Notes: a model not told the origin generated them from the sequence alone. Shown: positions 3,735-48,185, counted from the stretch's first letter. The stretch: 64,000 nucleotides of DNA from an uncultured Pseudomonadota bacterium (GCA_964384365.1 CAYLKF010000001.1:212079-276078); one strand, 5' to 3'. Numbers and translations are program-made.

Positions 3735-3823
3735 TACCTCCTCATATCAGGCCCCACCGTTACAAATTCGCCCAAGCTTTCTAAACCTTCTCGAAGATGC
3801 GCGTTTCGCACATGCTCGAAGGT
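3735..3823. repeat. Left direct repeat: orphan copy of the last ~29 codons plus stop of the ABM-family gene at 11537..11818
   Basis: Base-by-base alignment of 3735..3823 with 11538..11626 gives 86/89 identical (mismatches at 3740, 3770, 3796). The minus-strand reading encodes ...FEHVRNAHLREGLESLGEFVTVGPDMRR-stop, but stops lie immediately upstream, so it is a gene fragment. Confidence 0.85.
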
Positions 3824-3860
3824 GGGCTGAGCACTGGGAATGGCATTTATAAAACCAGAT

Positions 3861-6800
3861 CTAATCTAATTTTTGGGTCAATTCACCTGCAATCATCTCC
3901 GCCTGCTTCAACACCATCTCCGTTGCCAAAGCTTGCATATCGGGTGGATAGCCATATTGGCGAAGCGTTCTTTTTACAGCAACTTTGAGTTGGGCACGTA
4001 CGCTTTCTTTGATAGTCCAATCAATCGAAGCGTTTTGGCGGATTTTTTCGGTTAAGACTACCGCCAATTCTCGTAATTTATCTTTGCCTAGAAGTTCTCT
4101 TGCGCTTTGGTTATCTGCAACAGCAGTATAAAAAGCGTATTCGTGATCGGAAAGTCCCAAAGTTTTAGGCTCTTCATCGATTGATTTGATATCTTTCGCA
4201 AGCTTGATCAGTTCTTCAATCACTTCTGCAGCCGTGATAATTTTACTGTGATAGCGCTTGATGGAATCTTCCAGCATTTCCAAAAGATGTTTGCCTTGGA
4301 TCAAATTTTTCTTCAGTCGTACTTTGATTTCGTCATTCAGAATTTTTTTGAGGGTTTCCAGAGCGATATTCTTGTGCTCCATGTTTTTGATTTCGAGCAA
4401 GAATTCTTCCGATAAAATTGAAATATCGGGTTTCTTAATTCCTGCAGCATCGAACACATCTACTACTTGAGTAGAAACTAGGGCTCGATCAATCAATTGC
4501 CGAATGGTTGTTTCCATTTCTTCATCATTTTTACCGGAGCCCGTGCTGTCAAACTTCACCAATCTCGCTTTCACCGCCTGAAAATAGGCGACTTCCTCTT
4601 TGGCATCCATCGCTTGTTCATGCGGAACAGAAATGGCAAAAGCTTTAGAAAGTGCAGTGACTTCATCAATGAATCGTTTCTTCCCTTTTTCTAAGCCCAA
4701 GATATGCTCTTCCGCAGAAAGGATGAGAGAAAGTTTTTGGGAAGTATTGGCTGAAAAATAATTTTCGTAATTAAAACCGGAAAACATTTGAGAAACCACT
4801 TCGAGCTTTTCCAACAGGAGAGCCACTGCTTTTTCTTGAGTGACTGCTGGATCGCCTTTGCCGCCACTATCCGAATAAAACGAGAGAGCTTTTTTCAAAT
4901 CTGAAGCAATCCCCAGATAATCCACTACCAAACCGCCTTTTTTATCTTTATAAACACGATTCACACGTGCAATTGCCTGCATCAAGTTATGACCTTGCAT
5001 CGGCTTATCAATGTATAAAGTATGCAAACAAGGCGCATCGAAACCGGTCAGCCACATATCCCGCACAATCACCAGCTTTAAAGGATCTTCCGGATTTTTG
5101 AGGCGGGAGGCTAAAGTTCTGCGTTGTTCCTTAGTAGTATGATGTTTGGAAAGTTCAGGGCCATCGCTGGAGGCAGCCGTCATCACTACTTTGATGAAAC
5201 CTTTGGAAAGATCTTCGCTCTGCCATTCAGGCCTCAGTTGAATGATGGCATCGTAAAGAGCCACTGCAATCCGGCGAGACATCGCCACAATCATCCCTTT
5301 GCCTTCAAACACTTCTTGGCGAGCTTCAAAATGGCTCACAATATCTTTGGCAATATTTTGGATTCGATGTTCACTTCCAATTAAAGCTTCCAGTTGCGTC
5401 CATTTCGCTTTGGCTTTTTGCATTTCCGATAAATCTTCATCCGACAATTCTTTATCTAATTCTTCGACCAATTTTTTGCCTTCTGAACTTAATTCCACTT
5501 TGGCAAGACGACTTTCATAATAGATGCGAACCGTCGCTTCATCTTCCACCGCTTTGGCAATATCGTAAATATCGACGTAAGCGCCAAACACTGCTGGCGT
5601 GTTGACATCCGTCCCTTCAATAGGCGTTCCCGTAAATCCTAGATAGGTTGCATTCGGCAAAGCATCGCGCATGTATTTAGCAAAACCATAAACGAGCTTT
5701 TGTCCAATCACATTGCCTTGGGCATCTTTTTCATCCACCGTTTTGGGTTTGAAACCATATTGCGTGCGATGGGCTTCATCGGCAATCACGACGATATTAC
5801 TTCGATTGGAAAGCTCCTCATACACATTACCTTCTTCCGGTTGAAACTTTTGAATGGTGGTAAAAACCACGCCACCCGAGGCTACCTTGAGAAGGTTTTT
5901 CAGATCTTTTCTATCTTTGGCCTGAACAGGATCTTGCCTCAGCAGTTGTTTGGAGGCCGCAAAGGTATCAAACAATTGATCATCCAGATCATTGCGATCG
6001 GTAATCACCAGAATAGTAGGATTATTTAAAGCGCGTACAATCTTGCCCGTCGCAAAAACCATGGTGAGCGACTTGCCAGAACCTTGCGTGTGCCAAACCA
6101 CGCCGCCTTTTCGATCTCCTGTTTCAGAACTCGCGCGCAAAACGGAGTCGACTGCTTTATTGACGGCATAATATTGATGATAGGCCGCCACTTTCTTTAC
6201 TGTTTCAATGCTGGTGATACCTGTTTGAGGATCTTCTTTTTTATGTTTCTCAAAGACGATGAAATTTTGAATCAAATCCAAAAGAGTTTTTTTATTCAGC
6301 ATGCCCTGGATTAAAATTTCCAGCTGGCTCACTAGGTGAGAAGCCTCTGCCTTCCCATCCACCGATTTCCACGCCATGAAGCGACTGTAATCCGAAGAAA
6401 TGGTTCCCGTTTTCGCTTCCAATCCATCAGAAATCACCACGAAGCTGTTGTAGGTGAATAAAGAAGGGATGCTGCTTTTATAGGTTCTGAATTGATCAAA
6501 GGCAGATTTAATCGTGGCGTTTTCATCTGCAGGATTTTTGAGTTCGATCACCATGAGCGGCAAACCATTCACGAAGAGAATAATATCCGGACGTTTGTTC
6601 TGGTTGTTTTCGATGACTGTGAATTGATTGACGATGCAGAAATCATTATTCTCCGGATTTTCGAAATCAATTAGCCATACGTAGTCTCCACGTTCTTCAG
6701 AACCTTCACGTACCAATACATTCACGCCTTCGATGAGCATACGGTGAAAACTTTCGTTATTGTTCATTAATTCGGGAGAATGAATGCGTTGAACTTGCCT

Positions 6801-7013
6801 GAATGCTTCTTCACGCGCTTCTTTTGAAACCTTGGGATTGATGCGATCAATGGCTTCTTTGAGTTTATCGATTAAGAGAACGTCCTCAAAATTCGAACGC
6901 AGTGGATTTTTTTCTCCTGCCGCAATTTCAGGACCGTAGAAGTATTGATAACCTTGCTTTTGCAAAAGCTGGATGGAGAATTCTTCGATGTGGGATTCGG
7001 TGAGGAGAGTCAT
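3861..7013 (-). CDS. hsdR: Type I restriction enzyme R subunit (HsdR)
   Basis: Walker A TQGSGKS and DEAH box VVIADEAHR. The track start at 7028 is a TTG; I prefer ATG at 7013..7011, which overlaps the upstream gene's TGA stop (ATGA) and has a G-rich stretch about 7 nt upstream. Confidence 0.9.
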   Translation of the reverse strand: MTLLTESHIEEFSIQLLQKQGYQYFYGPEIAAGEKNPLRSNFEDVLLIDKLKEAIDRINPKVSKEAREEAFRQVQRIHSPELMNNNESFHRMLIEGVNVLVREGSEERGDYVWLIDFENPENNDFCIVNQFTVIENNQNKRPDIILFVNGLPLMVIELKNPADENATIKSAFDQFRTYKSSIPSLFTYNSFVVISDGLEAKTGTISSDYSRFMAWKSVDGKAEASHLVSQLEILIQGMLNKKTLLDLIQNFIVFEKHKKEDPQTGITSIETVKKVAAYHQYYAVNKAVDSVLRASSETGDRKGGVVWHTQGSGKSLTMVFATGKIVRALNNPTILVITDRNDLDDQLFDTFAASKQLLRQDPVQAKDRKDLKNLLKVASGGVVFTTIQKFQPEEGNVYEELSNRSNIVVIADEAHRTQYGFKPKTVDEKDAQGNVIGQKLVYGFAKYMRDALPNATYLGFTGTPIEGTDVNTPAVFGAYVDIYDIAKAVEDEATVRIYYESRLAKVELSSEGKKLVEELDKELSDEDLSEMQKAKAKWTQLEALIGSEHRIQNIAKDIVSHFEARQEVFEGKGMIVAMSRRIAVALYDAIIQLRPEWQSEDLSKGFIKVVMTAASSDGPELSKHHTTKEQRRTLASRLKNPEDPLKLVIVRDMWLTGFDAPCLHTLYIDKPMQGHNLMQAIARVNRVYKDKKGGLVVDYLGIASDLKKALSFYSDSGGKGDPAVTQEKAVALLLEKLEVVSQMFSGFNYENYFSANTSQKLSLILSAEEHILGLEKGKKRFIDEVTALSKAFAISVPHEQAMDAKEEVAYFQAVKARLVKFDSTGSGKNDEEMETTIRQLIDRALVSTQVVDVFDAAGIKKPDISILSEEFLLEIKNMEHKNIALETLKKILNDEIKVRLKKNLIQGKHLLEMLEDSIKRYHSKIITAAEVIEELIKLAKDIKSIDEEPKTLGLSDHEYAFYTAVADNQSARELLGKDKLRELAVVLTEKIRQNASIDWTIKESVRAQLKVAVKRTLRQYGYPPDMQALATEMVLKQAEMIAGELTQKLD

Positions 7014-8053
7014 AACTCTACCCCCCAAATATTTACTGATTTCGCATCAAACAAATTAACCTTACATTTGAATGATGAGTGAATGGATTTTATATGTTTT
7101 ATATCTTTTTCAGAATAAACACCTATATAAACACTCCATAATTTGGAATCTATATCTTGTTTAGATGCTTTGTTGATAGCATCAATAATATGTTTGTCGT
7201 AATCTCCGAAATTAAAACCAAAAGTGATTAATGAACCTTCTATTGAAGAAAGTTTTTTGTAACAAAAATCAAGATATTGATTGTGTAAAATATGAGAAAG
7301 TTTTTGTTCTCCATCTCCTGCTGTTACAAATACAGGGTATTCCTTATTTTCCATTCTTGTTTTAATATTTTTTAACAAATAATTTCCGTCGTAGATTTCC
7401 TTACTTATTGCAGTGCCACTATCAAATAAATGTAATGCACCGTGTAAGTAATGCACATGTTGTTCCGTACGATTATTACCCCATTCGAGATCGCCGGCTT
7501 CAGCCTCGGCATTTTTATCATCTTCATCATTTATGAAATATTCTCTACCGAAACCGTCTATGATGTTGGCAATACCATCTTGCGAACTCATCAAAACCCA
7601 ATAAAGCAACAAATCGTAATTTGTTGTAAATACATGGCCGTCATTATCAAGATACTCCTTAAGAAATGTTGCACAAAGATTTATTCTATTTTGAGGAATT
7701 TTAAAAATATGCTCAGGATGCAACTGAGAAACGGCATCAATTAAATTTTTCTTTAATGACTCGCTAGCGGCCTTTATTGTACTAGCTAAATTTTGATCTT
7801 TAGAAAACTCAGTGGCGAGTGCGCAAAACACGTCAAGCTCCCTCATGATTTGTTCAAAATTGTATGTTTTAATTATATCAAAAAGTTTCTTTAAAAACTT
7901 ATTATCCGTTTTAAGAAGAAAATCACTTAGGGCGTTATACGAAAATATGGCTTTATCATAAGCCATACTGAAACCATTACCTAACAGTAAGTGTTTAGCT
8001 CTTTTTTTCTTATTCAAATAATTAATAATGTCAGAATACTTTTTAAGCTCCAT
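7010..8053 (-). CDS. SIR2-like (ThsA / SIR2_2 / DUF4917-type) putative NAD+-consuming effector
   Basis: Four motifs in the canonical order: Gly-rich loop LLLGNGFSMAY, FTTNYDLL, HYLHGALH, ITFGFNFGDYD, matching the ThsA SIR2 motifs GAGxS / TTNYD / HGD / GFSFxD as I recall them. Sampled lines give about 25-33% G+C, lower than hsdR. Confidence 0.6.
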   Translation of the reverse strand: MELKKYSDIINYLNKKKRAKHLLLGNGFSMAYDKAIFSYNALSDFLLKTDNKFLKKLFDIIKTYNFEQIMRELDVFCALATEFSKDQNLASTIKAASESLKKNLIDAVSQLHPEHIFKIPQNRINLCATFLKEYLDNDGHVFTTNYDLLLYWVLMSSQDGIANIIDGFGREYFINDEDDKNAEAEAGDLEWGNNRTEQHVHYLHGALHLFDSGTAISKEIYDGNYLLKNIKTRMENKEYPVFVTAGDGEQKLSHILHNQYLDFCYKKLSSIEGSLITFGFNFGDYDKHIIDAINKASKQDIDSKLWSVYIGVYSEKDIKHIKSIHSSFKCKVNLFDAKSVNIWGVEL

Positions 8054-8054
8054 G

Positions 8055-8702
8055 TTATTCTGTCTCTACATTAAACATCTTACATTCAACCGCATAAGCT
8101 CGTGGATCTATGTTATAAAGTATTTCACTAGCTAGATACGAATATTCTCCCATTACAAACTCACCAAATGAATCATCCCAAAATTCATTAAAATCTGAAT
8201 TGTCTTGGTATTCAGAAATTTTCTCCTCAGTTTGTGCTACAGTTGTAAGGGGTGATGATGTTTCAAATCCTCTAATTAATAAAGAAGCCACAATTTCAGT
8301 GGAATCGATCAAAAATTCTTTTGCTAAATGATCAATTTTATTGTTCCTATTTTTTAATTCCTCAATAGTCATACCATGAGAAGTTGAGCCAATATCGTTA
8401 CGTAAATTTCCCATCTGCTGGCCAATAGTTGCCAGAGATCTTGAAATTTGATTGACGAGTTCTTCGCTTTTATAACCAATGGCTATAAAAGCACTTTTCA
8501 AAACCGCATTCATATTTGAGGTGTTTGGCAAGGTAACATCTTTAATTTTACAAATTTCCTTCCCTATCGTTTCAAGAAGAGCTTTTGCATTTTCAAGTGA
8601 TAAGCTGAAATCAGTTTCAGCATATGCTTCTATGCGGCTTACAAAAACCTCAATATCTTTCCATCTCCCGTGTTGCTCTATGACAGCTTTTAGTTTCTGC
8701 AT
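8055..8702 (-). CDS. Hypothetical 215-aa protein, partner of the SIR2-like gene; acidic/aromatic C-terminal tail
   Basis: ATG overlaps the hsdS stop (TAATG); its stop lies 1 nt before the SIR2-like ATG. No catalytic motif recognised. C-terminus EYQDNSDFNEFWDDSFGEFVMGEY is acidic and aromatic-rich. Confidence 0.6.
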   Translation of the reverse strand: MQKLKAVIEQHGRWKDIEVFVSRIEAYAETDFSLSLENAKALLETIGKEICKIKDVTLPNTSNMNAVLKSAFIAIGYKSEELVNQISRSLATIGQQMGNLRNDIGSTSHGMTIEELKNRNNKIDHLAKEFLIDSTEIVASLLIRGFETSSPLTTVAQTEEKISEYQDNSDFNEFWDDSFGEFVMGEYSYLASEILYNIDPRAYAVECKMFNVETE

Positions 8703-9928
8703 TAGAGTGCTTCCTCTTCATACTTCACCCTCACCTCACCACTCATCAGTTTAGGTAAAAGAGTGTCGCGAAGTTTTTCTAAATTTCTTATTTGTTGGTG
8801 ATTCGAATCAATTTTTTCCCAGGCATTTTCGGTAAAATTACAAAAAGTATGTAGGATCTCTTTTGAAGGTAATTGAAACTCAACAGTTTCAATGTCAGAT
8901 GGTTTTAGAGATGGATAAGTAGAAGTTGAAGCTTCAGCAATTGTGCTTAGATATTCCGTCATTTCATTCTGAGTAAGGAGATAATAAATAAAATGCGGAT
9001 TAATAGCACTGCAAGTGAGTACGCAAAAACCAGTTGAAACAACTAAGTTATTAGGCGGATTTTTAATAAATCCATAATGTTTATGATTAGGCCTGACTGT
9101 TGAAACGATAATATCATTATGTTGAACTAACCTTTTGGCCCGACTAGGAGAATCTTTTAGGGAATAAATTTCAAATTTTTCAATTTTCCCTTCTGTAATA
9201 GAACCAGTATCCAAATATTTAATAATTTCGTAAGGATGATCCGTCCTGAGTGTAGAAATATTAGTTTTTGCAATGTCACCTATAGTAATATTTGGCCAAC
9301 TTGGATTAGCCTCCTCCACAAACCACTGCCGAAAAAGTGTTTCAGCAATAGCTTCTAGGGTTTTGTTTTGGCGGTGGAGGAGGTCAATTTTGTCATCCAG
9401 GCTGGAGAGAATTTCGGCGATGGCTTTTTGTTCGGGGAGAGGTGGTAAAAAAAATGCATAATTTTTTATTGCCGTTGGAGAAGTATGTTTTATTGATGTT
9501 CCAGATGATGCGCTGACAATATATTGTTGATACTCTCTAGTTCGCATTAACCAATAAATAAATTCTCTATCCGTATTATTATTATTATTATTATTTTTAA
9601 ATTTAACTAAACCAACTCGTTGATTATGGAGAAAAATGACACCTTCCATATAAGGTATCTTTGCTGTATACCCTAAAGTATCACCGTCTTTACTTAAATC
9701 GGTCATAGTAACAATAATGTCGTCTGGTGTAAGAATATATTCTTTTGGAAAATCAGAGGATGAAAAATACTTAAACTTATCCTGCTTAAACCCACCCCCA
9801 ATATGAAAGTTTCCAGGGGTAACTAGAATTTTATCTGTTTTTTCTTGAGTTATATATTTTCCCTTAAAAGCATAACCATGCTTTATATCTATGACTTCAC
9901 CTAATGTTGTTTCTTCCCACTCACCCAT
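8702..9928 (-). CDS. hsdS: Type I restriction-modification specificity subunit (HsdS), two target-recognition domains
   Basis: Conserved central region LPPLPEQKAIAEIL...LLHRQN and C-terminal repeat LPSKEIL...LEKLRDTLLPKLMSGEV. Start overlaps the hsdM stop by 8 nt. Confidence 0.9.
   Translation of the reverse strand: MGEWEETTLGEVIDIKHGYAFKGKYITQEKTDKILVTPGNFHIGGGFKQDKFKYFSSSDFPKEYILTPDDIIVTMTDLSKDGDTLGYTAKIPYMEGVIFLHNQRVGLVKFKNNNNNNNTDREFIYWLMRTREYQQYIVSASSGTSIKHTSPTAIKNYAFFLPPLPEQKAIAEILSSLDDKIDLLHRQNKTLEAIAETLFRQWFVEEANPSWPNITIGDIAKTNISTLRTDHPYEIIKYLDTGSITEGKIEKFEIYSLKDSPSRAKRLVQHNDIIVSTVRPNHKHYGFIKNPPNNLVVSTGFCVLTCSAINPHFIYYLLTQNEMTEYLSTIAEASTSTYPSLKPSDIETVEFQLPSKEILHTFCNFTENAWEKIDSNHQQIRNLEKLRDTLLPKLMSGEVRVKYEEEAL
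9577..9597 (-). repeat. (AAT)7 trinucleotide repeat inside hsdS encoding a poly-Asn run
   Basis: Plus strand reads (ATT)x7; minus-strand translation ...KFKNNNNNNNTDREF in the first target-recognition domain. Confidence 0.85.
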
Positions 9929-11438
9929 TCAAAACCACCTTCGCTAAATTCTCTAAAATACGTTCATTGAGCTTAACTTCTTCTTTCATCTGAGCTTCCA
10001 ACTCCGCTTTGAGAACGGTAAAGCGTTCTGCAAAATTGAAATCATCTTCAATATCTTCCAAGCCCACATAGCGGCCTGGGGTCAGCACATAATCCAACTC
10101 CTGCACACGCTGGATGCTAGCTGAATTGCAGAATCCTTTTATGTCTTGATATCCATCGTCTTCCGATCGCCAGTTATGATAAGTTTGAGCAATTTTTTGG
10201 ATGTCTTCGTGAGAAAATTCTTTTGTGCGTCGATTGATGAGATGGCCGAGGTTACGGGCATCGATAAATAGAATTTCTTCCCGGCGATAGGTTTTGCCAC
10301 GTCGCAAAAACCATAAAGAAGCGGGGATTTGCGTATTCAGAAACAATTTGGCGGGCAAGTTAACGATGCAATCCACTAAGCGAGCTTCGATCAGTGCTTT
10401 GCGGATTTCGCCTTCGCCGGAGGATTTAGAAGTAAGCGCCCCTTTCGCCATGACAAAACCGGCATGGCCACTCGGAGATAAATGATAGAGGAAATGTTGA
10501 ATCCAGGCATAGTTGGCATTGCCACTGGGAGGAACGCCATATTTCCAGCGACCATCATTGCGGAGCAAATCACCGCTCCAGTCGCTATCATTAAAGGGAG
10601 GATTCGCGATGATGAAATCAGCTTTTAGATCTTTATGCGTATCGTTAAGAAAAGAACCTTCGTTGTTCCATTTCACTTGTGAGCTATCAATACCACGGAT
10701 GGCAAGATTCATTTTCGCCAAGCGCCAAGTGGTTTGATTGCTTTCTTGACCATAAATGGAAATATCGTTGATGCGGCCTTGTCGAGCTTCCACAAATTTT
10801 TCGGATTGAACAAACATTCCCCCTGAACCGCAGCAGGGGTCAAAGACTCGGCCTTTATAGGGCTCCAACATTTCTACCAGTAATTGCACAATAGAGCGAG
10901 GCGTATAGAACTGTCCCCCTTGTTTACCTTCTGCTAATGCGAATTCACCCAGAAAATATTCAAACACATGCCCCAGTATATCGGCACTGCGGGCTTTACT
11001 TTGTTCAATATCGATATTGCTAAATTCATCGATGAGTTTGCCTAAGTTGGCAGAATCTAAATTTCCTCGGGCAAAAACTTTTGGGAGGACTCCTTTGAGG
11101 GAAGGATTATCGCGCTCGATAGCATCCATTGCAGCATCGATGTCTTTTCCTATCTCTGGCAGCTTGGCCCGTGACTGCAAGTAGTTCCAACGCGCGGAAG
11201 GAGGCACAAAAAAAACATTCTTGGCTTTGTATTCGTCACGATCTTCCGGGTCGGCTCCCGCGAACTCTCCTTCGCCTTTTTTGAGTTGTTCATAAATTTC
11301 TTCAAAGGAACTTGAAATATATTTTAGAAAAACCAACCCCAAGACGACATGCTTGTATTCTGCCGCATCAATGTTTTTGCGAAGTTTATCCGCCGCTTCC
11401 CAAAGTTTTTTTTCTAATGATTCAATTTTTGAAGTCAT
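9921..11438 (-). CDS. hsdM: Type I restriction-modification N6-adenine DNA methyltransferase (HsdM)
   Basis: Motif I DPCCGSGGMF and motif IV FIIANPPFN. ATG at 11438..11436 with AGAGGGAG just upstream. Confidence 0.92.
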   Translation of the reverse strand: MTSKIESLEKKLWEAADKLRKNIDAAEYKHVVLGLVFLKYISSSFEEIYEQLKKGEGEFAGADPEDRDEYKAKNVFFVPPSARWNYLQSRAKLPEIGKDIDAAMDAIERDNPSLKGVLPKVFARGNLDSANLGKLIDEFSNIDIEQSKARSADILGHVFEYFLGEFALAEGKQGGQFYTPRSIVQLLVEMLEPYKGRVFDPCCGSGGMFVQSEKFVEARQGRINDISIYGQESNQTTWRLAKMNLAIRGIDSSQVKWNNEGSFLNDTHKDLKADFIIANPPFNDSDWSGDLLRNDGRWKYGVPPSGNANYAWIQHFLYHLSPSGHAGFVMAKGALTSKSSGEGEIRKALIEARLVDCIVNLPAKLFLNTQIPASLWFLRRGKTYRREEILFIDARNLGHLINRRTKEFSHEDIQKIAQTYHNWRSEDDGYQDIKGFCNSASIQRVQELDYVLTPGRYVGLEDIEDDFNFAERFTVLKAELEAQMKEEVKLNERILENLAKVVLNG

Positions 11439-11536
11439 GCTCCCTCTTTATTAAAAGAAAAATCACTCATTTTTGGAATGAGGAATTTCTACTAAAGCTC
11501 CAAGCTTTGAAAAGAAAGATCTATTTTCTCTGATCA

Positions 11537-11818
11537 CTACCTTCTCATATCAGGCCCCACCGTTACAAATTCACCCAAGCTTTCTAAACCTTCTCGAATA
11601 TGCGCGTTTCGCACATGCTCGAAGGTAACTTGGGCGCCCCACTCTTCGATAAAATTAAACTGATAAGTTTCGCTTGGATTTTGTTGAAATTCAAAACCCA
11701 AACATCCCGCACTTTTTAAAGCCGCAGCAATGGTGATACTCAAAAAATTCTTCATCGCTTCTTCTTGACCCGGCAAGGCTTTATAAAGTGAAATCATCCT
11801 CACAGTTTTACGGCGCAT
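11537..11818 (-). CDS. Antibiotic-biosynthesis-monooxygenase (ABM) family protein
   Basis: About 93 aa with an ABM-like pattern (ISLYKALPGQEEA...GCLGFEF...FIEEWGAQVTFEHVRNAH). The track start is a TTG at 11830; first ATG at 11818 has GGAG 6 nt upstream. Its 3' end is the right direct repeat. Confidence 0.6.
   Translation of the reverse strand: MRRKTVRMISLYKALPGQEEAMKNFLSITIAAALKSAGCLGFEFQQNPSETYQFNFIEEWGAQVTFEHVRNAHIREGLESLGEFVTVGPDMRR
11538..11626. repeat. Right direct repeat (the intact 3' end of the ABM gene)
   Basis: 86/89 identity to 3735..3823. Confidence 0.85.
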
Positions 11819-11850
11819 TTTTTTCTCCAATTTACAAAATTAATTTTGAT

Positions 11851-11882
11851 AAAAAAAGGCCCTACAGAATTTCTGTAGGGCC
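11851..11882 (-). terminator. Intrinsic terminator 3 nt downstream of tRNA-Leu
   Basis: 10-bp perfect stem GGCCCTACAG / CTGTAGGGCC with 5-nt loop; the plus-strand A-run 11851..11857 is the U-tract on the minus strand. Confidence 0.7.
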
Positions 11883-11884
11883 AG

Positions 11885-11970
11885 TGCCCGAGGCCGGAAT
11901 CGAACCGGCACGACCGTTTCCAGTCACAGGATTTTAAGTCCTGTGTGTCTACCAATTCCACCACTCGGGC
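11885..11970 (-). tRNA. tRNA-Leu (anticodon UAA), long variable arm
   Basis: Cloverleaf folded by hand: acceptor GCCCGAG/CTCGGGC, anticodon stem CAGGA/TCCTG with loop CTTAAAA, T-stem GCCGG/CCGGC with loop TTCGATT, discriminator A. Confidence 0.85.
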
Positions 11971-12005
11971 TAGCAGATCATTCGTATTAAACGAATGATC
12001 TGCTA
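11971..12005. repeat. 15-bp perfect-stem hairpin abutting the 5' end of tRNA-Leu
   Basis: TAGCAGATCATTCGT - ATTAA - ACGAATGATCTGCTA. No U-tract, so not a canonical terminator. Confidence 0.7.
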
Positions 12006-12038
12006 GGATTTAGTAACTAGTAATTAGTTTTTAGGGGG

Positions 12039-12404
12039 TCAACTTTTATCTTCTAGATTTTTAATTAATCCGCTAAGCATTTTGGAAATTTCAACACATT
12101 CTTGTCGAAATATTTTATATTGCTCCGACGAAATGGATTGAAGATCCAGTCCAAGTTCTAAAAGGGGCACACACTCATAAGTTGATCCTCTTGCTATAGT
12201 GTAAAAATTTTTCTTTTCTTTTAAAGACTCTCTCCCCCCACCTTCTGCTATGTTTAAAGTAATACTCATCGAAGCCCTGCGAAGTTGATCACACCACGAA
12301 AAATTATTTTTTGAAAATGGGCTTATTACTTTTATTATTTGTTTAGAAAAAACAAGCGCCCTCTGATAAACATGTAACTTTTCAAATGAGAACTGTTCGT
12401 CCAT
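12039..12404 (-). CDS. Four-helix-bundle protein (23S rRNA intervening-sequence protein / Avd-like family)
   Basis: Family-typical pattern LHVYQRALVF...DQLRRASMSITLNIAEGGGRES...FYTIARGSTYEC. Confidence 0.8.
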   Translation of the reverse strand: MDEQFSFEKLHVYQRALVFSKQIIKVISPFSKNNFSWCDQLRRASMSITLNIAEGGGRESLKEKKNFYTIARGSTYECVPLLELGLDLQSISSEQYKIFRQECVEISKMLSGLIKNLEDKS

Positions 12405-14052: not shown

Positions 14053-15165
14053 TTAGTTGGTATCGTTGACTACTGCTACATATGGATAAGTCGTTGCACT
14101 TCCACTCAAAAGATAAACCCCCAAAACATTATTTAAATAAACGGTATTTCCGGTGGTGGTCGACGCACCTGGAAAGATCACCTCCGCCCAGTTTGCCGGG
14201 CCAAAAGCTCCGGTGCTGGTACGCTGAACCAGGGCATATCCAGCACCCGTGGCACCATCGCTCGCACCACCCACCGTCGTCCAACTCGCCACCAAATGAT
14301 ATTGACCTTCTCCACCATCAATCCCTTCAAAATGAGTCACTTGATTGGTTTGATCGAGAAAATTATACGCTTGCCAATTTGTGGCCTGCTGCGTGGAAGA
14401 ATCCCAATCGACTAAATAAGCGACTTCACCTTCTGTTGCGAGCAAAGGATCATGATAGCCTCCCGCAATGGTATAACTAGTTCCCCCATTCCACCAAATC
14501 CCATAAGCAGAAATGCTGGTGGTACCCGATTTGGTAAGTTCGTAATAGGTAGAATTCGCTGTGTTGTAGATGAAAACGCGCCCCGAGCGAAGCTGAGTAT
14601 CAAAATTTCCAACCGCGACTCCATTCATTGTACTATGCGGCACAGTACCCGCTAAGATATCGCCTCCAGCAACTAGCGAAGTGGGTAAAAGATTAAGCCA
14701 CGTGGTTCCACTCGCATTGGGAGGACCACTATAAAAAAATCCGTAAGTTTTATTATCTCCTTGAATTTGATAAGTCCCCACAGCATTCACTTCACCACTT
14801 CTGCTACTATTATCTGGGCCATAAAGATTTGAAGAAACGATCGTCTGACCCGGCGCCAAGGTTGCAGAAGGTTGAAAAAGATTCCACGTTCCTGCCTCGG
14901 AATTTAAATTACCCTGATCGATAAAAAGTGGCCCTTGATAAAGCAAGGCTGTGCTCACACCATTCACCGTATATCCCCCGCTAATATAAACATCGGTGGA
15001 GCCAGCGACTCGGCGAATACCCGTCACAAAGGTGCTCGGATACTGTGGATCGGTCGGAAAATTATGATAAACCACGCCAGGTTCATTCGGACCACAAGCT
15101 ACAAGGGGATGAAGAAAAACTCCAAAAAGGAGCAAACTAAAAATGGAAACATATTTTTTGATCAT
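14053..15165 (-). CDS. Hypothetical lipoprotein, Gly/Thr/Ser-rich
   Basis: Lipobox-like LVAC after a hydrophobic N-terminus; no recognisable catalytic motif. Confidence 0.6.
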   Translation of the reverse strand: MIKKYVSIFSLLLFGVFLHPLVACGPNEPGVVYHNFPTDPQYPSTFVTGIRRVAGSTDVYISGGYTVNGVSTALLYQGPLFIDQGNLNSEAGTWNLFQPSATLAPGQTIVSSNLYGPDNSSRSGEVNAVGTYQIQGDNKTYGFFYSGPPNASGTTWLNLLPTSLVAGGDILAGTVPHSTMNGVAVGNFDTQLRSGRVFIYNTANSTYYELTKSGTTSISAYGIWWNGGTSYTIAGGYHDPLLATEGEVAYLVDWDSSTQQATNWQAYNFLDQTNQVTHFEGIDGGEGQYHLVASWTTVGGASDGATGAGYALVQRTSTGAFGPANWAEVIFPGASTTTGNTVYLNNVLGVYLLSGSATTYPYVAVVNDTN

Positions 15166-17845: not shown

Positions 17846-19885
17846 TTATTCCATTTTGAAAACCGGCGTGCGAATCGGCGCAATCGTAAATCCAAAAGTG
17901 AAACTTTGACCCGGTGCCAGATTTTTCTGCCAACTGGGCAACTGCATCGTGGTTTGGTTTGCCGTTTTCGAAATCAAATCGACACTCCACGGCGAAAAAC
18001 CATTTCCTACATTCGCTGAAAATCGCAATCCGCTGAAGGTTGTAGATTTTGTCGTATTCTTGAGCACTGCCTTCATGTTGGCGCCACTCCAAGCTTCTCC
18101 CCTGCCCCACTCAGAATCGATTGAGAGCGTCAAGGTTAAGCCCGACGCAAGATTCTGCACCATTGATCCTTCTGTAGGATTCTGAGGGGGAGAAGGATCC
18201 GGTGCGGGGCTCGGAGCAGGGCTAGGTGGAGCAAGCTCTGTGGCGTTTTGCAAACTGAACGACGGCGTACTCAAAGGAGTCACTGTAAAACCAAAGGTAT
18301 AAGTTTCTCCAGGATCTAACGTGTTGTTGTAAGAGGGTAAACCTACCACGGTTTCAGAAGCGGTTTTCTGAACAGGATCCATACTCCAAATATTAATTCC
18401 ATTTCCTTGATTCGCTTTAATTTGAATTTGATTAAAAGTTTTGGAACTACTCATATTTTTAAGGGTGGCTTTATAAGTCGCTCCACTCCAGGGCTCCCCT
18501 TGGCCCCAAGAATTATCGACAACAAGTTGTAATTGAAAATCGGGCGAGATTGTTTGTGTTAAAGATCCGGGTGTTGGTGCAGGAGCAGGAGCTGGGCTGG
18601 GTGTTGGTGTTGGAGTTGGTGTTGGAGTCGGCGTTGGTGTAGGAGCGGGAGTAGGTGTTGGCGTAGGGCTTGGTGTGGGTGTAGGAGTGGGTGTAGGAGC
18701 AGGTGGAGGATTCCCATACAAAGTTTGAGAAACCAAAGAAGTTAAAGCATATTGATCATCGAGATCAATCGCCCAAATCATGGCTCCGCCCAGTTGTTTA
18801 TTCGTTAAATAATTCAATTTGCGGGTAATCGATTCCGAATCGTCGTAACTAATCCAATTTCCCCTTCCATCGTAGGCATAAGGCGTATCGGTATTTGAGT
18901 CCCACATACGCTGATATTGGCCACTATTCACGAGCTGCTCAATTTCATAATAAGCCATGAAACCGGCTTCTTGAGTGCAAGTGCCTCGCGGCGGATTCGG
19001 ACTCCACGGATTGGTGATCGTACTATTAGGCAGATTGGCCGAAGCGCTGCCAAAGCTTCTTCCATAAAACGGAATTCCTAAAATCAATTTCGACGAAGGC
19101 ACTCCCGCGTTGAGATAAAGATTCACAGTATAATCGATGTAAAAATGCCCATTGGGCACGGAGTCGTGCATCAAGGGCGAGTTGACTCCCGTTTTTGAAT
19201 CCCAACTTCCATGAAAATCGTAAGTCATGAGATTGATAAAATCGAGATAAGGATGAATCAAAGAAAGCTCGTAATTGGCAATGTGCGCTTCGCCCGCAGG
19301 AGCTGCGATTGTAAGCAAAAGCTTTTCTTTTCCGGCAGGAACCCGCTCGGCATCAATGGCTTGCCGAAATTCTTTGAGCAAGGCCGTAAAATTTTTCTTA
19401 TCTTGAGAAGTTCCAGAATGCTCTGCGAATCCGGGGTATTCCCAATCGAGATCAATTCCATCAAATCCGTAAGTTCGGGCATAAGTCATGGCTGAATTAA
19501 TAAAAGTTGCCCGCCGAGCAGAGCTTGAAGCCATCGCAGGAAAGGCATCACTTAAAGTCCAGCCCCCAATTGAAATCAAAGTTTTTAAATGGGGATACTG
19601 TTGTTTGAGGCTATTCAACTGCTCATACAAACCCGGAGAACCGCTGCTGATGTCATTCCACTCAACGGGTTGCACTTGATCACCCGCTCCAATTTTTGCA
19701 AAGGCATAATTGATATGCGTAAAATATTCGGGCCGGACATTGGCAGGAGTGAACTTGCATTGACCCGGCCGGTATTGAGCCCAATTGGTGAAATAGCCAA
19801 CAACTCGTGGAGTGGTATCGGCTCGCACTTCCAGAGAGAAGGCTAAAAGGAGAAATCCCAAAATCAACCGACTCAAGGCTTTCAT
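17846..19885 (-). CDS. Secreted GH18 chitinase with Pro/Thr linkers and two C-terminal CBM2-like modules
   Basis: Signal peptide, catalytic motif [11 protein letters not shown], long PT-repeat linker, two about 100-aa Trp-containing modules ([11 protein letters not shown]... and [11 protein letters not shown]...). Confidence 0.88.
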
Positions 19886-47162: not shown

Positions 47163-48185
47163 ATGAAAGATAAAATACTTGAATTTATTAATAAAAAACA
47201 AAAGGTTAGCACAAGCCAACTTGCCTTAACATTTCAACTCACTCCCCAGGGGATTCACAAGCATCTCAAAAAGCTTCTCCAAGAAGGTACAATCCTCAAA
47301 CAAGGAACGAGTCGAAAAACCAGTTATTATATTCCTCACAATACTTCCTCTCTTATTTCTCAAAATTCAGGTCTCGAAAGCAAATTTCGGAATATTAATC
47401 TGCAAGAAGACAAAATCTTGAAACAATTTGAACAAACGACCCCCTTTCTGAGAAACCTTCCCGAAAATACAGCTCATATTCTCTACTTTTCGTTTACTGA
47501 AATGCTCAATAACGCAATTGACCATTCTCATTCCAAAACGATTTCCATTCGATGGAATAACCAAGAAAACAAGATTTCTTTTGAGATTGAAGATAAGGGA
47601 ATTGGAATTTTTTCAAACATTCAAAAAAAGAAAAAACTTTCCAGCGATCTCGAAGCCATTCAAGACCTACTCAAAGGCAAAGAGACCACCCAACCCGAAA
47701 AACATTCGGGAGAAGGAATTTTTTTCACTTCAAAAATAGCAGACTTATTCTTTATCGACAGCCACCGCAAAAGGCTCACATTCAACAACACTCTGCCAGA
47801 CATCTTCATTCAAGACATACGAAATAAAAAAGGCACTCTCGTACATTTTGAAATTACCCGAAACACTTTAAAAAAATTAGAGAATGTTTTTCAGGAATAT
47901 ACCAATGAAGATTTTGAATTTGAGAAAACCCAGGTCAAAGTTTCTCTCTACAAACAAGGAATCGTCTATATTTCACGCTCTCAGGCAAAACGCTTATTAC
48001 ATGGCCTGATTCGTTTTAAAAAAATCATCCTCGATTTTCAAGGAGTAGAAACTGTGGGTCAAGGCTTCGCCGATGAAATCTTCCGAGTCTTTCAAAATCA
48101 ACATCCCGAAATTGAAATTTCGCCGATTCATATGCACGAAAATGTGGAATTTATGGTGAAACGGGCAAAGGCAAACAGCATGTAG
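47163..48185 (+). CDS. wHTH / GHKL-type ATPase-like / STAS-like (DUF4325-type) regulatory protein
   Basis: N-terminal wHTH (VSTSQLALTFQLTPQGIHKHLKKL), central EMLNNAIDHS...IEDKGIGI, C-terminal ILDFQGVETVGQGFADEIF. Confidence 0.5.
   Translation: MKDKILEFINKKQKVSTSQLALTFQLTPQGIHKHLKKLLQEGTILKQGTSRKTSYYIPHNTSSLISQNSGLESKFRNINLQEDKILKQFEQTTPFLRNLPENTAHILYFSFTEMLNNAIDHSHSKTISIRWNNQENKISFEIEDKGIGIFSNIQKKKKLSSDLEAIQDLLKGKETTQPEKHSGEGIFFTSKIADLFFIDSHRKRLTFNNTLPDIFIQDIRNKKGTLVHFEITRNTLKKLENVFQEYTNEDFEFEKTQVKVSLYKQGIVYISRSQAKRLLHGLIRFKKIILDFQGVETVGQGFADEIFRVFQNQHPEIEISPIHMHENVEFMVKRAKANSM

What the first reader, a model, noticed from the sequence alone, without database searches (positions are those of the whole stretch)
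7010..9600. The inserted genes and hsdS look more AT-rich than hsdR and flanking genes
By-eye counts on sampled 60-nt lines: about 23-33% G+C in the SIR2-like and partner genes and parts of hsdS, versus about 45-55% in hsdR, purH and the kinase gene. This suggests the cassette (and perhaps hsdS target-recognition domains) was acquired separately from the hsdM/hsdR backbone. These are rough estimates, not computed window statistics.
Basis: seen in the sequence. Interest (0 to 1): 0.5.

Follow-up and report, generated by a model that had tools for sequence, protein, structure and literature searches.

The report
AT-rich variable core of restriction operon
The AT-rich stretch is real: it is the swappable middle (DNA-specificity gene plus two add-on defence genes) of a travelling type I restriction-modification operon, a known kind of mosaic and not a new system.

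Summary
Window 7014-9920 has 33.2% G+C against 43% for the window. It holds hsdS, an Abi_C protein and a DUF4917/SIR2-like protein, with GC3 of 0.25-0.26. The flanking hsdM and hsdR have GC3 of 0.42-0.43. Codon usage, dinucleotide and tetranucleotide signatures are more deviant than in every other 2.9-kb window.

- In 39 related operons (hsdM 66-86% identical) the stretch between hsdM and hsdR holds different cargo.
- Two relatives about 95% identical in backbone DNA differ by whole-gene cassette swaps.
- The hsdS target-recognition domains are shuffled, while its central conserved region keeps host-like G+C.

Three results limit what the trough says about this genome.
- It is family-wide: 42 of 43 loci, mean -8.4 points, including three operons with no cargo.
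- DUF4917 genes are AT-richer than their flanks in 67 of 71 genomes.
- The block has no insertion scars. An 89-nt direct repeat brackets the whole 7.7-kb operon, so the operon probably arrived as an already mosaic unit.

This is a new member of a known kind: defence genes embedded in type I R-M loci, as with PrrC, Rlo and TgvAB.

The parts
3735..3823 (.). Left copy of an 89-nt direct repeat. It is an orphan duplicate of the last ~29 codons plus stop of the ABM-like gene.
   Evidence: It is 97% identical to 11538-11626 and sharply bounded on both sides. On the minus strand it encodes ...RNAHLREGLESLGEFVTVGPDMRR, which matches the C-terminus of ORF 11537-11830.
3861..7013 (-). hsdR, the type I restriction subunit. 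It has host-like composition and its ATG at 7013 overlaps the stop of the DUF4917 gene (ATGA).
   Evidence: Pfam HSDR_N, SWI2_SNF2/ResIII, T1R_D3-like and T1RH-like_C; PADLOC REase_I 1313 bits. GC 0.428, GC3 0.423. Junction read.
7010..8053 (-). DUF4917 / SIR2-like gene (PADLOC candidate PDC-S21), the AT-rich cargo gene next to hsdR.
   Evidence: Pfam DUF4917 E 7e-44 and SIR2_2 E 4e-6; PDC-S21 E 1e-109. GNGFS, TTNYD and LHG motifs are invariant in 23 homologues. The model's best fold matches are Sir2 of SIR2-HerA (E 2e-10) and ThsA. GC 0.313, GC3 0.264.
8055..8702 (-). Abi_C-domain gene (215 aa, HEPN-like), the AT-rich cargo gene directly after hsdS (TAATG overlap).
8702..9928 (-). hsdS specificity subunit, AT-rich overall and a mosaic of four parts: TRD1 9464-9928, central conserved region 9305-9463, TRD2 8843-9304, C-terminal conserved region 8702-8842.
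   Evidence: Pfam Methylase_S in two stretches; PADLOC Specificity_I E 8e-100. GC3 is 0.15-0.28 in both recognition domains and 0.45 in the central region. The conserved regions are 57-88% identical to relatives, and the recognition domains are unrelated or displaced.
9305..9463 (-). hsdS central conserved region, a segment of host- and backbone-like G+C inside the AT-rich block.
   Evidence: Codons 161-200 have GC 0.47 and GC3 0.45. It is 70-88% identical to the relatives' hsdS, and it is the only part of hsdS that aligns between L084 and L090.
9575..9595 (-). (AAT)7 run inside TRD1 of hsdS, encoding seven asparagines.
   Evidence: Read directly; the protein shows KFKNNNNNNNTD.
9921..11438 (-). 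hsdM methyltransferase subunit. It has host-like composition and overlaps the hsdS start by 8 nt (ATGGGTGA).
   Evidence: Pfam N6_Mtase E 9e-111 and HsdM_N. GC 0.443, GC3 0.427. Junction read.
11538..11626 (.). Right copy of the 89-nt direct repeat. It is the 3' end of the intact ABM-like gene (11537-11830, minus strand).
   Evidence: The gene has a weak Pfam ABM match, E 3e-4. The 7714 bp between the two copies (3824-11537) hold only the five-gene operon.

Best explanation
The AT-rich block is the exchangeable middle of a five-gene type I restriction-modification operon: hsdM, hsdS, Abi_C, DUF4917, hsdR. The genes are all on the minus strand and are packed with overlapping or abutting start and stop codons.

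In this widely transferred operon family, hsdM and hsdR are strongly conserved and sit close to host G+C. I infer that they act as homologous anchors for recombination. Between them, the hsdS recognition domains and a variable set of defence genes are replaced module by module from an AT-rich mobile gene pool. That middle therefore stays about 8-10 points lower in G+C than the backbone.

In this genome the whole 7.7-kb operon, already a mosaic, was probably inserted into the 3' end of an ABM-like gene with an 89-nt target duplication.

On function:
- Shown by sequence and fold: a complete type I R-M system, a SIR2-type protein that keeps all catalytic motifs, and an Abi_C (HEPN-like) protein.
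- Inferred: the two cargo proteins are abortive-infection effectors, an NAD+ hydrolase and probably an RNase. They would back up restriction and are co-expressed with it.
For: - Composition.
- Tight coupling of all junctions.
- Same backbone, different cargo.
- Census of 112 cargo ORFs from 39 loci: OLD/Gabija/AriA-like ATPases, PIN_12, Abi_C, AAA_13, RhuM, KwaB, GmrSD_N, Fic and Abi_2.
- The trough is family-wide. The hsdM-hsdR interval is below the backbone in 42 of 43 loci (mean -8.4, sd 4.1). hsdS is below in 38 of 38 and cargo in 35 of 36. The window sits at z = -0.47 within this distribution.
- The backbone is about equal to flank G+C (+1.6 points), whereas the interval is -6.9 points.
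- Direct cassette exchange at about 95% backbone identity, L084 against L090.
- Recognition-domain shuffling: the window's TRD2 is 71% identical to L089's TRD2 and 56% identical to L084's TRD1. The conserved regions are 57-88% identical.
- The host-like central region of hsdS sits inside one ORF. Selection on expression level cannot explain that pattern.
- An 89-nt, 97% identical direct repeat brackets the operon. Two of 23 testable relatives also have flanking repeats. Long target duplications around R-M insertions, including a type I operon interrupted by other genes, are described in PMC2853133.
- DUF4917 genes are AT-richer than their flanks in 67 of 71 genomes.
- SIR2 motifs and fold.
Against: - No donor or near-identical relative was found. 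The nearest DUF4917 is 72% and the nearest Abi_C 62% identical in protein, and the block's DNA is at most ~70% identical to anything retrieved. Neither the timing nor the order of events in this lineage is shown.
- No genome of the same species was available, so the empty site was not seen.
- The cargo and hsdS slopes against backbone G+C are about 0.5, and backbone and interval have similar slopes against flank G+C (0.53 and 0.52). A built-in compositional offset, not faster turnover, therefore remains possible.
- The three mismatches in the repeat could mean an old insertion, or a repeat that came in with the donor.
- No function of the cargo was tested.
Confidence: 0.65

Rival explanations
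1. One reading: hsdM and hsdR are a resident backbone, and the Abi_C-DUF4917 cassette (with hsdS or its recognition domains) was inserted between them in this genome, recently enough that its G+C has not drifted to the host value.
For: GC3 drops sharply at the hsdM/hsdS and DUF4917/hsdR junctions. hsdM and hsdR have native-like codon usage, B = 0.24 and 0.20. Cassette swaps at exactly this position occur between close relatives.
Against: There are no repeats, scars or mobility genes at the edges of the block, and every junction is an overlapping start/stop. The only insertion signature encloses the whole operon. The same trough is present in 42 of 43 relatives, and in three operons with no cargo, so it does not date an event. 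The nearest cargo relatives are only 62-72% identical.
Confidence: 0.2
2. The AT-richness is a built-in property of these genes and not a record of transfer. It might come from selection for rare or AT-rich codons that keep toxic effectors and HsdS at low levels, or from silencing of AT-rich DNA.
For: The offset is systematic: hsdS in 38 of 38 loci, cargo in 35 of 36, and DUF4917 in 67 of 71 genomes. Interval and backbone have similar slopes against host G+C.
Against: Within the single hsdS ORF, GC3 switches from 0.15-0.25 in the recognition domains to 0.45 in the central region. These boundaries match the recombination modules seen in relatives. All five genes share one tightly coupled operon. 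Cargo G+C does follow the host partly (slope about 0.5), and Abi_C in L089 has backbone-like G+C, 0.459 against 0.456.
Confidence: 0.12
3. Chance fluctuation, or an effect of amino-acid composition alone.
For: GC1 and GC2 are also low in the three genes, so protein composition contributes.
Against: GC3 lies at z = -3.6 to -4.0 in three adjacent genes. No other 2.9-kb window reaches the block's G+C, dinucleotide or tetranucleotide deviation.
Confidence: 0.02

Closest known systems
EcoprrI (prrA-D) of E. coli: a type IC R-M operon with the embedded anticodon nuclease gene prrC
   Same: A latent suicide-type effector gene lies inside a type I hsd operon and is co-transcribed with it (PMC3874165). 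In relatives of this operon the same position often holds AAA_13 (PrrC/RloC-like) proteins.
   Different: The cargo here is an Abi_C (HEPN-like) protein plus a DUF4917/SIR2-like protein, not PrrC. No physical masking by the R-M complex is shown.
Rlo genes of Campylobacter jejuni type I loci, and TgvAB in the Vibrio cholerae VPI-2 type I operon
   Same: Variable defence genes sit between hsdS and hsdR in a five-gene operon. TgvAB protects against phage independently of HsdR (PMC11411939).
   Different: The protein families differ (GmrSD-like there). The compositional mosaic and the family-wide trough were measured here and are not taken from those papers.
R-M gene complexes inserted with long target duplications (Furuta, Abe, Kobayashi 2010)
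   Same: A whole R-M unit is bracketed by a unique direct repeat of tens of bases. That paper includes a type I M-S-R operon interrupted by two unrelated genes, with a 46-bp duplication and deviant G+C (PMC2853133).
   Different: The repeat here is 89 nt with 3 mismatches. The empty site was not observed.
Defence-type SIR2 proteins (Sir2 of SIR2-HerA/Nezha, ThsA of Thoeris) and C. jejuni SliP (DUF4917)
   Same: The DUF4917 model matches Sir2 of SIR2-HerA (Foldseek E 2e-10) and ThsA better than the classical sirtuins SIRT5 and CobB, which score E 0.03-0.1. The GNG motif that SliP needs for NAD+ use is present (PMC10421069).
   Different: There is no HerA or SLOG partner, and the protein stands alone at 347 aa. 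SliP is reported as a secreted deacetylase, a role that nothing here supports or excludes.
Type I HsdS domain shuffling (exchange of target-recognition domains between conserved regions)
   Same: The two variable recognition domains are separated by conserved regions. One of the window's domains matches a relative's domain in the other position.
   Different: No inverted repeats or invertase for phase variation were found in the locus. Exchange here appears to be between genomes, not within one.

Membership tests
Type I restriction-modification system | HsdM with an N6-adenine methyltransferase domain and the HsdM N-terminal domain | tested here: met
   N6_Mtase E 9e-111, HsdM_N E 7e-28; PADLOC MTase_I 654 bits.
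Type I restriction-modification system | HsdS with two target-recognition domains separated by conserved regions | tested here: met
   Methylase_S in two stretches. The conserved regions are 57-88% identical to relatives and the recognition domains are variable.
Type I restriction-modification system | HsdR with an N-terminal nuclease domain, an SF2 motor and a C-terminal domain | tested here: met
   HSDR_N, SWI2_SNF2/ResIII, T1R_D3-like and T1RH-like_C.
Type I restriction-modification system | Sequence-specific methylation, and restriction of unmethylated DNA | not testable with these tools
   Needs a methylome and transformation or plaque assays.
Defence genes embedded in type I R-M operons (PrrC / Rlo / TgvAB kind) | Non-hsd genes lie between hsd genes, on the same strand and in the same operon | tested here: met
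   Junctions are TAATG, TAAcATG and ATGA.
Defence genes embedded in type I R-M operons (PrrC / Rlo / TgvAB kind) | Cargo varies between otherwise related operons | tested here: met
Defence genes embedded in type I R-M operons (PrrC / Rlo / TgvAB kind) | The cargo confers phage defence, alone or coupled to the R-M complex | not testable with these tools
   Only family membership is known: PDC-S21 is a candidate and Abi_C is a family name. No paper in the library mentions PDC-S21.
SIR2-superfamily NAD+-consuming enzymes (DUF4917 branch) | A significant match to DUF4917 / SIR2_2 profiles | tested here: met
   DUF4917 150.9 bits (cut-off 28); SIR2_2 27.4 bits (cut-off 24.5); PDC-S21 365 bits.
SIR2-superfamily NAD+-consuming enzymes (DUF4917 branch) | Rossmann GxG motif, the N-x-D motif and the catalytic His are conserved | tested here: met
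   G25-N26-G27, N145-Y146-D147 and H204-G205 are invariant in 23 sequences. Assigning them to the sirtuin motifs is my inference from established sirtuin knowledge.
SIR2-superfamily NAD+-consuming enzymes (DUF4917 branch) | SIR2 fold | tested here: met
   Model pLDDT 79, pTM 0.82. Foldseek probability 1.0 to Sir2 of SIR2-HerA and to ThsA. TM-scores are only about 0.5.
SIR2-superfamily NAD+-consuming enzymes (DUF4917 branch) | NAD+ hydrolysis or deacylation activity | not testable with these tools
   Reported for the distant homologue SliP (PMC10421069).
HEPN-type RNases (Abi_C) | A match to the Abi_C profile | tested here: met
   31 bits against a cut-off of 24, covering residues 74-142 only.
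HEPN-type RNases (Abi_C) | The R-x(4-6)-H catalytic motif | tested here: inconclusive
   R101 and H109 are invariant, but seven residues separate them (RNDIGSTSH).
HEPN-type RNases (Abi_C) | The HEPN helical fold | tested here: inconclusive
Horizontally acquired segment, by composition and context | Deviant G+C, codon usage and oligonucleotide signature | tested here: met
   The background is the 64-kb window only.
Horizontally acquired segment, by composition and context | Insertion boundaries (repeats, scars, mobility genes) at the edges of the AT-rich block | tested here: not met
   None at about 7013 or about 9930. The 89-nt repeat lies outside hsdR and hsdM.
Horizontally acquired segment, by composition and context | Absent from, or different in, close relatives | tested here: inconclusive
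   The cargo differs in family relatives from other organisms. No same-species genome was available, and exact look-ups of hsdR and the ABM protein found nothing.

The most novel reading that the evidence does not exclude
The interval between hsdS and hsdR in this operon family may be a dedicated exchange site for abortive-infection effectors guarded by the restriction enzyme. On this reading Abi_C (HEPN-like, habitually placed right after hsdS) and DUF4917 (SIR2-type) are kept inactive by the assembled type I enzyme, as PrrC is in EcoprrI. They would be released when a phage anti-restriction protein disables that enzyme. hsdM and hsdR would serve as universal recombination anchors, making the family a natural, integron-like carrier of defence cargo across bacterial and archaeal phyla.
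Probability: 0.15. Interest if true: 0.6.

Novelty: new member of a known kind. Interest (0 to 1): 0.3.

Why it matters
For annotation, the result shows that a G+C trough inside a type I R-M operon marks the specificity-plus-cargo module. It is not evidence of a recent insertion. The real insertion boundary can lie outside the operon, as the 89-nt repeat does here.

The trough could be used as a cheap signal for finding candidate defence genes in this operon family. Of 39 related operons, 36 carry one to eight extra genes, many from known or candidate defence families and some unannotated.

It also places an untested candidate (DUF4917 / PDC-S21) and an Abi_C protein in a context where coupling to restriction could be tested directly.

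Tried and rejected
- Exact-sequence look-ups of hsdR and of the ABM-like protein found no other contig. The DUF4917 look-up gave only a 3.7-kb duplicate of this locus. No same-species comparison or empty site was therefore possible.
- No donor was found. The block's DNA is at most ~70% identical to any retrieved locus.
- DUF4917 homologues on plasmids are only about 30% identical, and there are none in the phage collection. No vehicle was identified.
- NCBIfam has no model for either cargo protein.
- PDB sequence searches gave nothing significant for Abi_C and only marginal SIR2 hits for DUF4917.
- No paper in the library mentions PDC-S21.
- The promoter and terminator scan gave fewer promoter-like sites than shuffles and nothing useful inside the block.
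- A fixed two-gene Abi_C + DUF4917 system was considered and rejected. The pair recurs in only one other retrieved locus, L006, in reversed order, and each gene occurs without the other.
- hsdS phase variation by inversion was considered and rejected. There are no long inverted repeats and no invertase in the locus.


Full report
**1. The observation**

The finding claims that the genes between hsdS and hsdR, and parts of hsdS, are more AT-rich than hsdR and the flanking genes. This is correct.

- The 1-kb bins 7001-8000, 8001-9000 and 9001-10000 have G+C of 0.321, 0.338 and 0.342. The window mean is 0.429 and the sd of bins is 0.036.
- The locus is a five-gene operon on the minus strand: hsdM 9921-11438, hsdS 8702-9928, an Abi_C-domain gene 8055-8702, a DUF4917/SIR2-like gene 7010-8053, and hsdR 3861-7013.
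- GC and GC3 are 0.443/0.427 for hsdM, 0.342/0.247 for hsdS, 0.343/0.255 for Abi_C, 0.313/0.264 for DUF4917 and 0.428/0.423 for hsdR.
- Against 45 other ORFs of the window, the three middle genes lie at z = -3.6 to -4.0 for GC3, while hsdM and hsdR lie at +0.2. Codon bias is 0.40-0.45 for the middle genes, against 0.26 +/- 0.04 for the background, 0.24 for hsdM and 0.20 for hsdR.
- The 2907-bp segment 7014-9920 is more deviant in G+C, dinucleotide relative abundance and tetranucleotide frequencies than all 112 other windows of the same size.

It is about 10 points, not about 20. The block extends to 9928, not 9600.

**2. Fine structure**

GC3 changes within a few tens of codons at the hsdM/hsdS junction and abruptly at the DUF4917/hsdR junction. 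Inside hsdS, both target-recognition domains have GC3 of 0.15-0.28. The central conserved region (codons ~160-205, window ~9305-9463) has GC3 of 0.45, like the backbone.

All junctions are overlapping or abutting start and stop codons: ATGGGTGA, TAATG, TAAcATG and ATGA. There is no non-coding DNA and no scar at the edges of the AT-rich block.

**3. What the genes are**

- hsdM, hsdS and hsdR have the full domain sets of a type I R-M system.
- The 347-aa protein matches Pfam DUF4917 (E 7e-44), SIR2_2 (E 4e-6) and the PADLOC candidate PDC-S21 (E 1e-109).
- In an alignment of 23 homologues, G25-N26-G27, N145-Y146-D147 and H204-G205 are invariant. I read these as the sirtuin Rossmann, N-x-D and catalytic-His motifs.
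- Its AlphaFold model (pLDDT 79, pTM 0.82) matches Sir2 of the SIR2-HerA defence complex best (E 2e-10), then ThsA. It matches classical sirtuins much less well.
- The only studied DUF4917 protein in the library is C. jejuni SliP, an NAD+-dependent enzyme (PMC10421069).

**4. Comparative evidence on separate histories**

- hsdR and hsdM have their nearest relatives at only 81% and 86% protein identity. Those relatives are spread over many bacterial and archaeal phyla, so the backbone is itself a travelling unit.
- The six nearest backbones carry other cargo between hsdS and hsdR: PIN_12; PIN_12 + AAA_13 + KwaA/KwaB; PIN_12 + AAA_13 + OLD-like; DUF7946/7 plus an unknown gene; and Abi_C + DUF6119.
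- A scan with hsdM gave 39 non-redundant operons in which both hsdM and the hsdR start are visible. The interval between them is 1.1-9.4 kb. Only three operons have hsdS alone, and the other 36 carry one to eight extra same-strand genes.
- These extra genes include OLD/Gabija/AriA-like ATPases, PIN_12, Abi_C, AAA_13, RhuM, KwaB, GmrSD_N, Fic and Abi_2.
- The clearest case is L084 against L090. hsdM is 94% identical in DNA, the hsdS C-terminus plus PIN_12 plus AAA_13 is 95% identical, and hsdR is 96% identical.
- In the same pair the recognition domains do not align, DUF4160 is present only in L084, and KwaA/KwaB in L084 is replaced by an OLD-like gene in L090. The breakpoints fall at the end of AAA_13 and the first base of hsdR. 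That is the position DUF4917 occupies in the window.
- For hsdS, the window's conserved regions are 57-88% identical to relatives. TRD2 is 71% identical to TRD2 of L089 and 56% identical to TRD1 of L084, and TRD1 has no relative in the set.

**5. Are the two cargo genes a pair?**

They are not.

- Abi_C homologues sit on the same contigs as hsdR homologues (matching contig lengths) and directly after hsdS in L089 and L171; L110 and L111 also carry it between hsdM and hsdR. Abi_C is habitual cargo of this backbone.
- DUF4917 has 490 relatives in the genome collection, across most phyla and at 53-68% identity among the 80 best loci kept. It occurs mostly outside this backbone. In L172 it lies downstream of hsdR beside a GmrSD gene.
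- The two genes are adjacent in only one other retrieved locus, L006, and in the opposite order.

**6. What the low G+C means**

- The trough is a family trait. The interval is below the mean of hsdM and hsdR in 42 of 43 loci (mean -8.4 points, sd 4.1). hsdS is below in 38 of 38 and cargo in 35 of 36. The three hsdS-only operons still show a drop of about 10 points.
- The window's value of -10.3 points is ordinary for the family, at z = -0.47.
- Backbone G+C is close to that of the surrounding DNA (+1.6 points over 22 loci), and the interval is 6.9 points lower.
- DUF4917 genes are lower than their flanks in 67 of 71 genomes, staying at 0.28-0.39 in all but one host with flank G+C up to 53%.

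The trough therefore says that this DNA belongs to the fast-exchanging, AT-rich defence pool. It does not date an event in this genome.

A purely selective cause, such as rare codons for low expression, is less likely. GC3 switches within the single hsdS reading frame at the same boundaries where relatives recombine. It is not excluded, because the slopes against host G+C are alike for backbone and interval.

**7. An unexpected boundary**

- An 89-nt direct repeat, 97% identical and sharply bounded, lies at 3735-3823 and 11538-11626.
- The right copy is the 3' end of an intact ABM-like gene (11537-11830). The left copy is an orphan duplicate of the same 29 codons plus stop, located 37 nt beyond the hsdR stop.
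- The 7714 bp between the copies hold only the operon (GC 0.393).
- This is the pattern described as R-M insertion with long target duplication, including a type I operon interrupted by unrelated genes (PMC2853133).
- Two of 23 testable relatives also show flanking repeats, L133 and L169.

The most economical reading is that the operon entered this genome as one already mosaic unit. hsdM and hsdR are as foreign as the middle and merely match the host's composition.

**8. Comparison with known systems, and verdict**

Defence genes embedded in type I R-M operons are well known. Examples are PrrC in EcoprrI (PMC3874165), and the Rlo genes and TgvAB (PMC11411939). Deviant G+C and codon usage of R-M genes are a classic observation (PMC2853133).

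This locus is a new member of that kind, with an Abi_C protein and a DUF4917/SIR2-type protein as cargo.

Interest is modest. The points worth keeping are the family-wide, quantifiable trough as a locator of defence cargo, the 89-nt repeat that marks whole-operon insertion, and the untested possibility that the cargo is functionally coupled to the restriction enzyme.

Noticed in passing
window 3735-3823 and 11538-11626: An 89-nt direct repeat (97% identical, 3 mismatches) brackets the whole hsd operon. The left copy is an orphan duplicate of the 3' end of the ABM-like gene at 11537-11830. Two of the three differences are synonymous in that gene's frame.
   Followed up: partly
window 9575-9595 (minus strand): An (AAT)7 run inside TRD1 of hsdS encodes seven consecutive asparagines. 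It is an in-frame trinucleotide tract that could vary in length. None of the compared relatives has a TRD1 related enough to check.
   Followed up: no
window 12039-12404 (minus strand): A four-helix-bundle gene (Pfam 23S_rRNA_IVP, TIGR02436) is as AT-rich as the cargo (GC 0.336, GC3 0.262). It lies just outside the repeat-bounded insertion. A perfect 16-nt inverted repeat at 11970-12006 and a strong terminator-like hairpin at 11858-11882 lie downstream of it on its own (minus) strand.
   Followed up: no
window 47163-48185 (plus strand): This is the second low-G+C spot of the window (GC 0.364; the 1-kb bin is 0.338). The gene encodes an HTH + HATPase_c_2 + DUF4325 (STAS-like) protein.
   Followed up: no
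L084 1854-2240 and 6449-8004; L090 5803-7524: Two metagenomic operons about 95% identical in backbone DNA differ by a DUF4160 gene between hsdM and hsdS, and by KwaA/KwaB (Kiwa) against an OLD-like ATPase-nuclease next to hsdR. This is a natural example of a defence cassette swap with breakpoints at gene boundaries.
   Followed up: yes
L172 40-11214: The closest DUF4917 relative on a long NCBI contig (69% identity) lies downstream of hsdR in an island with GmrSD, SelO and AbiEii. A different SIR2_2 gene occupies the position between hsdS and hsdR there.
   Followed up: partly
L133 5237-5275 / 14862-14900; L169 9409-9494 / 18774-18860: Two other operons of the same family have direct repeats (39 nt at 95%, 87 nt at 87%) upstream of hsdM and downstream of hsdR. 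This suggests that insertion with long target duplication recurs in the family.
   Followed up: no
window 8843-9304 compared with L084 2233-3408: The window's second recognition domain is 56% identical to the first recognition domain of the L084 HsdS. Domains therefore move between the two positions as well as between operons.
   Followed up: partly
window 10119-10238 and 9939-10058 (hsdM 3' part): Two short dips of GC3 (0.30 and 0.35) occur in the last 100 codons of hsdM, before the sharp drop at hsdS. The DNA alignment to L082 stops 80 nt before the hsdM stop, whereas the alignment to L089 runs to the end.
   Followed up: no
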